Shown one piece after another: positions 60,815 through 63,858 of a DNA stretch of 64,000 nt. Below the pieces are notes generated by a model, which was not told the DNA's origin, ran no database searches, and saw only the letters and a list, made by a program, of their open reading frames with translations. The DNA is taken from NCBI RefSeq assembly GCF_055900595.2, contig NZ_CM148325.1; one strand, 5' to 3'. The first letter of the stretch is position 1; each line of letters opens with the position of its first letter. Both the position numbers and the translations under genes were made by a program.

Positions 60815-62020
60815 ATGACGGAACAAGAAAAAACCTCCGCCGTGGTTGAAGAGACCAGGGAGGCCGTGGACACCACGTCACAACCTGTCGCAACAGAAAA
60901 AAAGAGTAAGAACAATACCGCATTGATTCTCAGCGCGGTGGCTATCGCTATTGCTCTGGCGGCGGGCGTCGGTTTGTATGGCTGGGGTAAACAACAGGCC
61001 GTCAATCAGACTGCCACCAGCGATGCCCTGGCTAACCAACTTACGGCACTGCAAAAAGCCCAGGAGAGCCAAAAAGCCGAGCTGGAAGGCATTATCAAGC
61101 AACAAGCTGTACAGCTTGAGCAAGCGAATCGTCAGCAAGAAACGCTGGCAAAACAGCTGGATGAAGTCCAACAAAAGGTCGCGACTATTTCCGGCAGCGA
61201 TGCTAAAACCTGGCTGCTGGCTCAGGCTGATTTCCTGGTGAAACTCGCCGGAAGGAAGCTGTGGAGCGATCAGGACGTCACGACCGCTGCAGCGTTGCTG
61301 AAAAGTGCAGATGCCAGCCTGGCGGATATGAATGACCCGAGTCTGATTACCGTTCGTCGGGCAATTACCGATGATATCGCCAGCCTTTCTGCGGTATCGC
61401 AGGTGGATTATGACGGCATCATCCTTAAGCTGAACCAGCTTTCTAATCAGGTAGATAACCTGCGTCTGGCCGATAATGACAGCGATGGTTCACCAATGGA
61501 TTCCGACGGTGAAGAGCTTTCCAGTTCCCTCAGCGAATGGCGTATCAATCTACAAAAAAGCTGGCAGAACTTTATGGACAACTTCATTACGATTCGCCGT
61601 CGTGATGACACCGCCGTACCACTGTTAGCACCGAATCAGGATATCTATCTGCGCGAAAATATTCGCTCCCGCCTGCTGGTCGCGGCACAAGCCGTACCGC
61701 GTCATCAGGAAGAGACTTACCGCCAGGCGCTGGAGAATGTCTCCACCTGGGTACGTGCTTACTACGATACTGATGATGCCACCACCAAAGCGTTCCTCGA
61801 CGAGGTGGACCAGTTAAGTCAGCAAAATATCTCGATGGATCTCCCGGAAACCCTGCAAAGCCAGGCGATGCTGGAAAAACTGATGCAGACCCGCGTGCGT
61901 AACCTGCTGGCACAACCGGCAGCAGGGACAACGGAAGCTAAACCTGCACCTGCACCTGCACCTGCACCTGCACCTGCACCGCAAGCTGATACTCCGGCAG
62001 CCGCGCCGCAAGGAGAATAA
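60815..62020 (+). CDS. hemX: HemX (uroporphyrinogen-III C-methyltransferase-like membrane protein)
   Basis: 401 aa starting [24 protein letters not shown]…; single TM segment, coiled-coil, C-terminal (PA)n tract. Confidence 0.9.
61943..61972 (+). repeat. tandem hexanucleotide repeat (CCTGCA)x5 inside hemX
   Basis: Five perfect CCTGCA units plus one degenerate unit (CCGCAA), encoding the Pro-Ala tract [13 protein letters not shown]. Confidence 0.9.
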
Positions 62021-62022
62021 CC

Positions 62023-63219
62023 ATGCTAAAAGTGTTATTGCTCTTTGTGTTGCTGATTGCGGGGATCGTGGTCGGCCCGATGATTGCCGGTCATCAGGGG
62101 TACGTGCTGATCCAGACCGATACCTACAATATCGAAACCAGCGTCACGGGCCTGGCGATCATTTTGATTCTGGCGATGGTAGTGCTGTTTGCCATTGAGT
62201 GGCTACTGCGGCGGATCTTCCGCACAGGCGCACACACCCGTGGGTGGTTTGTCGGACGTAAGCGTCGCCGTGCCCGTAAGCAGACCGAACAGGCGCTGCT
62301 GAAACTAGCGGAAGGCGATTATCAGCAAGTTGAAAAGCTGATGGCGAAAAATGCCGATCACGCTGAACAACCGGTGGTGAACTATCTGCTGGCTGCCGAA
62401 GCCGCGCAACAACGCGGTGATGAAGCACGCGCCAACCAACATCTGGAACGCGCAGCGGAGCTGGCCGGCAACGACACAATTCCGGTAGAAATCACCCGTG
62501 TACGTCTGCAACTGGCCCGTAATGAAAACCATGCAGCACGTCACGGCGTTGATAAGCTGCTGGAAGTTACGCCACGCCATCCGGAAGTATTACGTCTGGC
62601 GGAACAGGCGTATATCCGCACCGGTGCATGGAGTTCGCTGCTGGATATCATCCCATCAATGGCAAAAGCCCACGTTGGCGATGAAGAGCATCGTGCAATG
62701 CTGGAACAACAGGCATGGATTGGCCTGATGGATCAGGCGCGTGCCGATAACGGTAGCGAAGGTTTGCGTAACTGGTGGAAAAACCAAAGCCGGAAAACGC
62801 GTCATCAGGTGGCGTTACAGGTGGCAATGGCGGAACATCTTATTGAATGTGACGATCATGATACTGCCCAGCAAATTATCATCGACGGCCTGAAACGCCA
62901 GTATGACGATCGCCTGCTGCTGCCGATCCCGCGTCTGAAAACCAATAACCCGGAACAGCTGGAAAAAGTGCTGCGCCAACAGATCAAAAACGTGGGCGAT
63001 CGCCCGTTGTTGTGGAGCACACTGGGTCAGTCGCTGATGAAGCACGGCGAATGGCAGGAAGCATCGCTCGCCTTCCGCGCGGCGCTGAAACAACGTCCGG
63101 ACGCCTACGATTACGCATGGCTTGCCGACGCGCTGGACAGACTGCACAAGCCGGAAGAAGCCGCAGCGATGCGTCGCGATGGCTTGATGCTAACCTTACA
63201 GAATAACCCGTCACAGTAA
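62023..63219 (+). CDS. hemY: HemY (TPR-containing heme biosynthesis-associated membrane protein)
   Basis: 398 aa starting MLKVLLLFVLLIAGIVVGPMIAGHQGYVLIQTD…. Confidence 0.92.
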   Translation: MLKVLLLFVLLIAGIVVGPMIAGHQGYVLIQTDTYNIETSVTGLAIILILAMVVLFAIEWLLRRIFRTGAHTRGWFVGRKRRRARKQTEQALLKLAEGDYQQVEKLMAKNADHAEQPVVNYLLAAEAAQQRGDEARANQHLERAAELAGNDTIPVEITRVRLQLARNENHAARHGVDKLLEVTPRHPEVLRLAEQAYIRTGAWSSLLDIIPSMAKAHVGDEEHRAMLEQQAWIGLMDQARADNGSEGLRNWWKNQSRKTRHQVALQVAMAEHLIECDDHDTAQQIIIDGLKRQYDDRLLLPIPRLKTNNPEQLEKVLRQQIKNVGDRPLLWSTLGQSLMKHGEWQEASLAFRAALKQRPDAYDYAWLADALDRLHKPEEAAAMRRDGLMLTLQNNPSQ

Positions 63220-63258: not shown

Positions 63259-63858
63259 ATGTCAAAATTGCGCACGCCGTCCCGCTATCTTTTCCGCTTG
63301 CCATCGCATGAAATTACTCCTTTTCGGGCAACGCTCTTTTTAATCTTGTTGATATGTGCCGCTCTGGCTGGCGTAAGTTGGCTGATTATTTCCTTTGTGC
63401 GTACGGGCAATACATTCATCTTCTGGTTAACACTTTTTATTGGGTATCTGATAGCTGCGGCGAAGCAGGAAAAAATCAAGCTCCTCAAGAAGTACCGAAT
63501 CATGGCAGATAAACGTCGGGTACGCTCCATTTGCCAGTTCGCCCGCGAATTTGACACCTACACCGTAGATACATGGGTGATTCGTGCGGTGTGGGATACC
63601 TTGCAAGGAAACGGCTATATCGATTACCCACTGCCACTGAAAGCCGATGATATACTGGACGATGATCTGGATTTGGTGCGCGACGCAGTCGAGTTAGAAG
63701 AGCTGGTTGAAGATACCGCTGCTCGTTGCGGGCGCGATCTATGCGGAATAGAAGAGAATCCGTTTCTTCCCATCGTCACGGTAGGCTCTCTTGTAAGAGT
63801 TTTAAACGCGCAACCGATGACCCAGGAGCGACGTAACCAGTTCTTTATTCGGTCATAA
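63259..63858 (+). CDS. hypothetical membrane-anchored protein with acidic C-terminal domain
   Basis: 199-codon ORF; predicted two TM helices (ATLFLILLICAALAGVSWLIISF; FIFWLTLFIGYLIAAA) then an acidic region (DDILDDDLDLVRDAVELEELVED); weak or absent RBS at the first ATG, so the real start is uncertain. Confidence 0.4.
   Translation: MSKLRTPSRYLFRLPSHEITPFRATLFLILLICAALAGVSWLIISFVRTGNTFIFWLTLFIGYLIAAAKQEKIKLLKKYRIMADKRRVRSICQFAREFDTYTVDTWVIRAVWDTLQGNGYIDYPLPLKADDILDDDLDLVRDAVELEELVEDTAARCGRDLCGIEENPFLPIVTVGSLVRVLNAQPMTQERRNQFFIRS

What the first reader, a model, noticed from the sequence alone, without database searches (positions are those of the whole stretch)
61943..61978. Hexanucleotide tandem repeat (CCTGCA)n encoding a Pro-Ala tract in hemX
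Five perfect plus one degenerate CCTGCA units encode (PA) repeats near the HemX C-terminus. In-frame hexamer repeats are prone to slipped-strand copy-number change without frameshift. The ORF here is 401 aa, whereas I recall about 393 aa for K-12 HemX, consistent with repeat-number polymorphism.
Basis: partly seen in the sequence, partly recalled or inferred. Interest (0 to 1): 0.35.

Follow-up and report, generated by a model that had tools for sequence, protein, structure and literature searches.

The report
Known E. coli typing repeat in hemX
The repeat is real and its copy number varies widely between E. coli strains, but it is the long-used strain-typing marker CVN014, sitting in a floppy, poorly conserved tail of the HemX protein, so it is ordinary and already known.

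Summary
The repeat at window 61943-61978 is real. It has six perfect CCTGCA units, not five, followed by a degenerate CCGCAA. It lies in frame in hemX (401 aa) and encodes K(PA)6PQ, 13 residues before the C-terminus.

Of 5,426 complete E. coli genomes, 5,425 carry the locus. Copy number runs from 0 to 16 in a systematic sample of 119 genomes (16 alleles, Nei diversity 0.89, modes at 2, 5 and 6). HemX length is 389+2n aa. Four genomes with identical 1,828-nt flanks carry 5, 7, 8 and 15 units, and two of them are O157:H7.

It is not new. The published CVN014 primers of the generic E. coli MLVA scheme match the window exactly on either side of the repeat. The predicted amplicon is 147 bp, which reproduces the published 111-bp offset and gives allele 6. 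The literature calls CVN014 the most variable locus of that assay.

The most likely mechanism is replication slippage in a non-conserved, probably unstructured tail, with little or no effect on fitness. A natural in-frame deletion of the whole tract exists. The tract is not a phase-variation switch. Folding predicts no effect on the hemY ribosome-binding site. Interest is low.

The parts
61943..61978 (+). (CCTGCA)x6 perfect hexanucleotide VNTR, encoding (Pro-Ala)6, HemX residues 377-388. This is the CVN014 repeat array, allele 6.
   Evidence: allelic series
61979..61984 (+). Degenerate seventh unit CCGCAA (Pro-Gln). It is constant in every allele fetched with n of 1 or more (it is deleted in the L013 null allele) and forms the 3' boundary of the array.
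60815..62020 (+). hemX coding sequence, 401 aa. It has an N-terminal transmembrane helix, then a helical region, the PF04375 domain (residues 130-363) and a low-complexity tail.
61919..62017 (+). Non-conserved P/A/T/E/Q-rich C-terminal tail of HemX (residues 369-401), which contains the repeat. Between species, conservation collapses after RVRNLLAQP368 and returns only at the terminal PAAAPQGE.
   Evidence: coil in the model (low confidence)
61919..61938 (+). Binding site of published primer CVN014-R (GCAGCRGGGACAACGGAAGC). Exact and unique match.
62042..62065 (-). Binding site of published primer CVN014-F (TCCCCGCAATCAGCAAMACAAAGA). Exact and unique match, inside the start of hemY. The amplicon 61919-62065 is 147 bp, made of the 111-bp offset plus 6x6 bp.
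62010..62025 (+). hemY Shine-Dalgarno AAGGAG (62010-62015, inside the last hemX codons), hemX stop TAA (62018-62020) and hemY ATG (62023). This is the coupling junction, 31 nt downstream of the array. Its predicted pairing does not depend on copy number.

Best explanation
This is the VNTR locus CVN014 of the generic E. coli MLVA typing scheme. It is a perfect in-frame (CCTGCA)n microsatellite in the 3' end of hemX. Copy number changes by whole units, most likely through slipped-strand mispairing during replication, possibly helped by weak hairpins formed by the TGCA palindromes in the unit. Each unit adds one Pro-Ala dipeptide, so the reading frame and the downstream hemY translation signals are untouched. 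The tract lies in a non-conserved, probably unstructured tail beyond the HemX domain, so length changes are tolerated and behave as neutral or nearly neutral variation. That is why alleles from 0 to 16 units coexist in the species. Shown here: the identity with CVN014, the allelic series, the conservation of frame, and change that is fast relative to flanking substitutions. Inferred: slippage as the mechanism, neutrality, and disorder and periplasmic location of the tail.
For: Identity with CVN014:
- Both primers published for CVN014 (PMC8143711 Table 1) match the window exactly and only once, on either side of the array.
- The amplicon is 147 bp. Subtracting the 36-bp array gives 111 bp, exactly the published offset in the formula (PS-111)/6.

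Polymorphism:
- 5,425 of 5,426 complete genomes carry the locus, and matched spans differ by multiples of 6 nt.
- Fetched alleles have n = 1-13, 15 and 16 (no 14), all perfect CCTGCA, and HemX length is 389+2n aa.
- A systematic sample of 119 genomes gives 16 alleles and Nei diversity 0.89.
- This is close to the published CVN014 frequency table. [quoted passage not shown]

Fast change:
- Four genomes with identical 1,828-nt flanks have n = 5, 7, 8 and 15, including two O157:H7 strains (5 and 15). Another identical-flank pair has 13 and 15.

Tolerance:
- NCTC11023 has a natural in-frame deletion of the whole tract plus 15 nt, leaving HemX at 384 aa and annotated as intact.
- The tail lies outside the Pfam domain, which ends at residue 363.
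- The tail is the least conserved stretch between genera.
- The tail is modelled as coil after the last helix, which ends at residue 364.

Hairpin potential:
- The six-unit tract folds as single-stranded DNA at -5.9 kcal/mol (z = -3.3) on one strand and -7.1 kcal/mol on the other.
Against: - Neutrality is inferred, not measured. No fitness or phenotype data exist for any allele.
- The structure model is poor overall (mean pLDDT 43.5), so low confidence in the tail does not by itself show disorder.
- The same unit sits at the orthologous site in two Citrobacter species. This could mean the tract is maintained by selection, not merely tolerated.
- Slippage was not demonstrated. Unequal recombination would give the same pattern.
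- The hairpin energies are modest, and the minus-strand z-score is only -1.7.
- The frequency distribution comes from 119 systematically sampled genomes, not a full census. RefSeq over-represents laboratory K-12 strains and clinical clones.
Confidence: 0.85

Rival explanations
1. Adaptive length tuning. The (PA)n tract is a stiff spacer whose length is under selection. It would set the reach of the conserved terminal PAAAPQGE motif of a Mic60-like envelope protein, and the repeat would be kept as an evolvable tuning knob.
For: The same CCTGCA unit lies at the orthologous site in Citrobacter gillenii (30 nt perfect) and C. rodentium (24 nt), and C. sedlakii has a 9-nt variant there. The terminal PAAAPQGE is conserved across genera. 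HemX is described as a distant Mic60 homologue. A hemX deletion changes gentamicin sensitivity.
Against: The allele spectrum is broad and smooth from 0 to 16 units, with different numbers on identical haplotypes. A natural allele lacks the tract entirely. The Salmonella HemX sequences read here have no PA run in the tail. Conservation of the last codons can be explained by the hemY Shine-Dalgarno sequence embedded in them. No phenotype has been linked to copy number.
Confidence: 0.08
2. Unequal homologous recombination (RecA-dependent sister-strand exchange or gene conversion between alleles), not replication slippage, generates most of the length changes.
For: Large jumps occur on identical flanking haplotypes, 5 versus 15 units in O157:H7. 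A single unequal exchange could produce such a jump as easily as many single-unit slips.
Against: The arrays are only 6-96 bp, generally regarded as too short for efficient RecA-mediated exchange (own knowledge, not tested here). The sampled distribution runs without a gap from 0 to 13 units. The tools cannot separate the two mechanisms.
Confidence: 0.1
3. Regulatory role at the RNA level. Copy number changes mRNA structure upstream of hemY and so tunes the hemX-hemY translational coupling.
For: The array ends 31 nt before the hemY Shine-Dalgarno sequence, and the RNA repeat can form a hairpin that grows with n.
Against: In partition-function folding, the repeat pairs almost entirely with itself. 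The unpaired probabilities of the hemY SD and ATG are identical to four decimals for n = 0, 2, 6 and 15, and the region means are identical to three decimals for n = 0-16 and 20.
Confidence: 0.03
4. The apparent polymorphism is an assembly or sequencing artefact of a low-complexity region.
For: One genome (FCI17) has a 1-nt deletion in the tract and is annotated as frameshifted. P276M has an irregular tract together with a broken hemY. Both may be sequencing errors.
Against: The arrays are at most about 100 bp, shorter than a sequencing read. In complete genomes the differences are clean multiples of 6 nt with perfect units. PCR fragment sizing in independent MLVA studies shows the same range and similar frequencies.
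Confidence: 0.01

Closest known systems
CVN014, a VNTR locus of the generic E. coli MLVA scheme (GECM-7/GECM-10; Lindstedt et al. 2007, Lobersli et al. 2012, as cited in PMC8143711, PMC3877011 and PMC5217547)
   Same: It is the same locus. Both published primers match exactly on either side of the array, the unit is 6 bp, the 111-bp offset is reproduced, and the range and frequencies of alleles in RefSeq genomes resemble the published tables.
   Different: Nothing differs. The window carries allele 6, the most frequent class in the sample. None of the open-access papers searched links CVN014 by name to hemX, and the original description could not be read.
Other in-frame 6-bp VNTRs used for typing Enterobacteriaceae, for example the Salmonella Typhimurium STTR loci (five-locus MLVA, including STTR5 and STTR6, studied in PMC5183578)
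   Same: Short tandem units whose copy number differs between genomically identical isolates (STTR data; CVN014 data). That STTR5 is an in-frame hexamer repeat in a chromosomal gene is own knowledge, not tested here.
   Different: Different gene and species. The Salmonella HemX sequences read here have no PA run in the tail.
Ala-Pro-rich hinge and linker segments of bacterial envelope proteins (OmpA hinge, TonB proline-rich spacer, E2 acyltransferase linkers). This comparison is from own knowledge, not tested here.
   Same: Alternating Pro-Ala sequence, expected to be extended and semi-rigid. HemX is a membrane-anchored protein, and the tail is probably periplasmic.
   Different: The tract does not join two folded domains, because only 13 residues follow it. 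Its length is hypervariable within the species, which is not a described feature of those linkers.
Phase-variable contingency loci driven by simple-sequence repeats (Neisseria and Haemophilus type)
   Same: A hypermutable simple-sequence repeat inside a gene.
   Different: The unit length is a multiple of three and all clean alleles keep the frame. It changes protein length but cannot switch the gene on and off.

Membership tests
CVN014 MLVA locus | Flanked by primers GCAGCRGGGACAACGGAAGC and TCCCCGCAATCAGCAAMACAAAGA | tested here: met
   Exact, unique matches at 61919-61938 (+) and 62042-62065 (-), with 0 expected by chance. Primer sequences are from PMC8143711 Table 1.
CVN014 MLVA locus | 6-bp repeat unit and 111-bp non-repeat offset in the amplicon | tested here: met
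   Period 6. The amplicon of 147 bp minus the 36-bp array is 111 bp. Across the clean alleles with both primer sites, (PS-111)/6 equals the counted units.
CVN014 MLVA locus | Copy number polymorphic among E. coli isolates | tested here: met
   0-16 units, 16 alleles in 119 sampled genomes, Nei diversity 0.89. The published tables agree.
Coding-region microsatellite evolving by strand slippage | Perfect head-to-tail units; alleles differ by whole units with unchanged flanks | tested here: met
   19 clean alleles plus the window, all perfect CCTGCA with identical boundaries.
Coding-region microsatellite evolving by strand slippage | Length changes much faster than flanking point substitution | tested here: met
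   With 0 SNPs in 1,828 nt of flanks, n = 5, 7, 8 and 15; another such pair has 13 and 15. ST131 spans 2-11 units.
Coding-region microsatellite evolving by strand slippage | Changes arise by replication slippage (RecA-independent, dependent on tract length) | not testable with these tools
   This needs mutation-accumulation or amplicon experiments. The only support here is modest hairpin potential.
Phase-variable contingency locus | Repeat changes shift the frame or promoter spacing and switch expression on and off | tested here: not met
   The unit is 6 nt. All clean alleles keep hemX intact. The single frameshifted record is a 1-nt deletion, probably an error.
HemX family (PF04375) | Significant match to the Pfam HemX domain above the gathering score | tested here: met
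   E = 3.5e-108, 361 bits against a cut-off of 25.9, residues 130-363. The context is hemC-hemD-hemX-hemY.
Inter-domain Pro-Ala linker (OmpA hinge or E2 linker type) | Connects two independently folded domains | tested here: not met
   Only 13 residues follow the tract, and no domain or helix is predicted after residue 364.

The most novel reading that the evidence does not exclude
The CCTGCA microsatellite has been kept at the same site of the HemX tail since before Escherichia and Citrobacter diverged, because selection favours an evolvable Pro-Ala spacer. The spacer would set how far the conserved C-terminal PAAAPQGE motif of this Mic60-like inner-membrane protein reaches into the periplasm. 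On this reading CVN014 alleles are functional variants and not neutral markers.
Probability: 0.06. Interest if true: 0.4.

Novelty: already known. Interest (0 to 1): 0.1.

Why it matters
It matters little beyond bookkeeping. The locus has been used since 2007 to discriminate E. coli and Shigella isolates, and its hypervariability is documented. This analysis adds four things:
- an explicit mapping of CVN014 to the hemX 3' end and the HemX tail
- a length rule (HemX = 389+2n aa) that explains why annotated HemX lengths differ between strains
- confirmation from 5,425 complete genomes that the frame is essentially always kept
- the observation that the same unit sits at the orthologous site in some Citrobacter species

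For annotators, differences in HemX length between strains should not be read as errors or as functional divergence. For biology, it would matter only if HemX tail length turned out to have a phenotype, and nothing here suggests that.

Tried and rejected
- Effect on hemY translation through mRNA structure: rejected. SD and ATG pairing probabilities are identical for every n tested, n = 0-16 and 20.
- Structure prediction to show that the tail is disordered: the model was poor overall (mean pLDDT 43.5, 15 close homologues). Only the secondary-structure boundary at residue 364 is used, with a caveat. No fold search was attempted on such a model.
- The 485-aa HemX (P0001) as a candidate extreme expansion: rejected. 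It is an 84-aa segmental duplication, probably a metagenome misassembly, and not extra PA units.
- Literature link between hemX and VNTRs: the only hit was a Salmonella paper that lists a hemX point mutation, which is irrelevant.
- Original CVN014 description (Lindstedt 2007): not held in the library, so its own statement of the gene location could not be checked.
- Phase-variation reading: rejected, because the unit is a multiple of three and the alleles keep the frame.
- Replication-strand context: GC skew of the window's + strand is negative overall but +0.017 in the last 8 kb. This is too weak to say more than that hemX probably lies on the lagging strand.
- Scans of metagenome and species-representative genome collections were not run, because they could not change the verdict.

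Full report
**Observation**

Window 61943-61978 reads CCTGCA six times without a mismatch. Tandem Repeats Finder reports 61942-61980, period 6, 6.5 copies, 100% matches. The next hexamer, CCGCAA (61979-61984), is the degenerate unit.

The tract is in frame in the ORF 60815-62020 (401 aa). It starts at codon 377 and gives ...TTEAK(PA)6[13 protein letters not shown]. The ORF is HemX (PF04375, E = 3.5e-108, residues 130-363). It lies between hemD and hemY in a hemC-hemD-hemX-hemY operon. It is the only perfect repeat of a 4-9 nt unit with four or more copies in the 64-kb window, and none arose in 200 shuffles.

**Polymorphism**

I ran megablast with the repeat plus 100-nt flanks against 5,426 complete E. 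coli genomes. It found the locus in 5,425 of them, and the matched spans differed from the query by multiples of 6 nt. A second search with a 2-unit allele as query showed the same pattern.

I fetched 21 of these loci.
- Alleles with n = 1-13, 15 and 16 (no clean 14-unit allele) were all perfect CCTGCA arrays with the same boundaries. HemX length is 389+2n aa and the gene is annotated as intact.
- The 2-unit allele (L011, HemX 393 aa) is 100% identical over 451 nt to K-12 substr. GM4792 and AB1157.
- NCTC11023 has lost the whole tract plus CCGCAAGCTGATACT in frame, leaving HemX at 384 aa.
- FCI17 has a 1-nt deletion inside the tract and is annotated as frameshifted. This is probably a sequencing error.
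- P276M has an interrupted but in-frame array, (CCTGCA)7-CCTGCTGCA-CCTGCA-CCA-(CCTGCA)4, in a genome whose hemY is also broken.

The two 'spread' tables are systematic samples of the ranking. Their span-derived copy numbers matched the true number in every clean array I fetched. Together they give 119 genomes, 16 alleles (0-16 units), Nei diversity 0.89 and modes at 2 (17%), 5 (15%) and 6 (18.5%) units. The window's allele is the commonest class.

**Rate relative to substitutions**

Four genomes (57_142493, 114, O157:H7 WS4202 and O157:H7 Z885) have no difference in 1,828 nt of flanking hemX and hemY sequence, yet carry 8, 7, 5 and 15 units. Strains 13KWH46 and D7 have identical flanks with 15 and 13 units. 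Strains 2273-PO3 (11 units) and NT1F25 (1 unit) differ by one flanking SNP. The tract therefore changes much faster than the surrounding DNA accumulates substitutions.

**It is a known marker**

PMC8143711 prints the primers of the generic E. coli MLVA scheme. For CVN014 they are F TCCCCGCAATCAGCAAMACAAAGA and R GCAGCRGGGACAACGGAAGC, and the allele is called as (product size - 111)/6. Both primers match the window exactly and only once, at 62042-62065 (-) and 61919-61938 (+), bracketing the array. The amplicon is 147 bp. Subtracting the 36-bp array gives 111 bp, so this is allele 6. The same formula returned the counted unit number for every clean fetched allele that has both primer sites.

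The literature agrees with what I found in the genomes.
- It reports 2-11 units within ST131 alone (PMC3407997).
- It gives a frequency table for 2-12 repeats that resembles my genome sample (PMC5217547).

I could not read Lindstedt et al. 2007. No open-access paper in the library links the names CVN014 and hemX.

**What the tract is in the protein**

An alignment of HemX from E. coli, six Citrobacter species and Salmonella is almost invariant up to RVRNLLAQP368. It then becomes a length-variable P/A/T/E/Q-rich stretch and recovers only in the final PAAAPQGE. The Pfam domain ends at residue 363.

The AlphaFold model built on this shallow alignment is poor (mean pLDDT 43.5). It places the last helix at 343-364 and leaves 365-401 as coil. 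I use this only as weak support.

The final codons contain the hemY Shine-Dalgarno sequence (AAGGAG, 62010-62015). The hemX stop is at 62018-62020 and the hemY ATG at 62023. That overlap is enough to explain why the last residues are conserved (inference).

HemX itself is poorly characterised. The RefSeq product name 'uroporphyrinogen-III C-methyltransferase' goes back to a 1988 suggestion. One preprint treats HemX as a distant Mic60 homologue that lacks the mitofilin domain. A Keio hemX deletion is viable and less sensitive to gentamicin. The cluster of lysines before the single transmembrane helix suggests an N-in topology, which would put the tail in the periplasm. This is inference and was not tested.

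**Mechanism and rivals**

The pattern is whole-unit changes, perfect units, unchanged flanks and a high rate. This is what replication slippage produces. The unit contains the palindrome TGCA, and six units fold as single-stranded DNA into an imperfect hairpin of -5.9 kcal/mol (z = -3.3) on one strand and -7.1 kcal/mol (z = -1.7) on the other. That is modest, and at most a contributing factor. Unequal recombination cannot be excluded with these tools.

It is not a phase-variation switch, because the unit is a multiple of three and the alleles keep the frame.

I tested whether copy number could alter hemY translation through mRNA structure. In partition-function folds the repeat pairs with itself as an insulated hairpin. 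The pairing probabilities of the hemY SD and ATG are identical for every n tested, n = 0-16 and 20. That rival is unsupported.

An adaptive tuning role for the Pro-Ala spacer cannot be excluded. The evidence that weighs against it is the smooth 0-16 spectrum on identical haplotypes, the natural null allele, and the absence of a PA run in the Salmonella tails.

**One mildly interesting point**

The same CCTGCA unit occupies the orthologous position in Citrobacter gillenii (30 nt perfect) and C. rodentium (24 nt). C. sedlakii has a 9-nt unit, GCACCTGCC x3, at that site. The repeat-prone site therefore predates E. coli, or it arises recurrently in this tail.

**Verdict**

The feature is the established typing locus CVN014 and is most probably a near-neutral slippage-driven VNTR in a disordered protein tail. 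It is already known and of low interest.

Noticed in passing
window 62000-62070: The hemY Shine-Dalgarno sequence (62010-62015) is predicted to be almost fully paired (unpaired probability below 0.005) in a strong local hairpin with roughly the first 35 nt of hemY coding sequence. The hemX stop lies 2 nt before the hemY ATG. This fits translational coupling, in which ribosomes finishing hemX open the hemY start.
   Followed up: partly
L022:1390-1500, L023:1390-1503, L024:1380-1491 (Citrobacter gillenii, C. sedlakii, C. rodentium hemX 3' ends): The same CCTGCA unit lies at the orthologous site in C. gillenii (30 nt perfect) and C. rodentium (24 nt). C. sedlakii has a 9-nt GCACCTGCC x3 repeat there, and the Salmonella protein tails have no PA run. 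The repeat-prone site is older than E. coli or arises recurrently.
   Followed up: partly
L013:1380-1430 (E. coli NCTC11023): A natural in-frame deletion removes the whole PA tract plus CCGCAAGCTGATACT, leaving HemX at 384 aa. A SNP also lies in the CVN014-R primer site. This strain has no repeat units at CVN014 and could fail to amplify in MLVA.
   Followed up: yes
P0001 (ENA metagenome protein, 485 aa): This HemX has an 84-aa internal tandem duplication whose junction falls exactly at the K-P-A start of the PA tract. Its tract is interrupted (PAPAPAPTPAPAPAP). It is a misassembly or a repeat-associated duplication.
   Followed up: no
P0053 (Salmonella enterica serovar Berta HemX, 413 aa): A 24-aa tandem duplication ([24 protein letters not shown]) spans the end of the transmembrane segment.
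   Followed up: no
window 61843-62078: The window's hemX/hemY-junction haplotype is rare. Only 4 of 5,425 genomes are at least 99% identical over 236 nt. The best match is strain 2013C-4282 (human stool, USA) at 100%. HemX here has AVQLEQ and SSSLSEW where the other E. coli alleles fetched have AAQLKQ and SSSISEW.
   Followed up: partly
L021 (E. coli P276M): hemY is annotated as frameshifted with an internal stop, and the hemX tract is irregular, (CCTGCA)7-CCTGCTGCA-CCTGCA-CCA-(CCTGCA)4. This is either a decaying hemXY region or a low-accuracy assembly.
   Followed up: no
window 60815-62020 and RefSeq annotations in L001-L021: RefSeq names HemX 'uroporphyrinogen-III C-methyltransferase'. The papers read call it poorly characterised and a distant Mic60 homologue. 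The product name is probably a legacy misnomer.
   Followed up: partly
window 63259-63858 (+): A 199-aa ORF lies directly after hemY and appears to have a hydrophobic N-terminal region. At the corresponding position in strain FCI17, RefSeq annotates a hypothetical protein.
   Followed up: no
E. coli genome search results: One of the 5,426 genomes has no match to the hemX 3' end. At least one genome has two copies, and one match lies on a plasmid.
   Followed up: no
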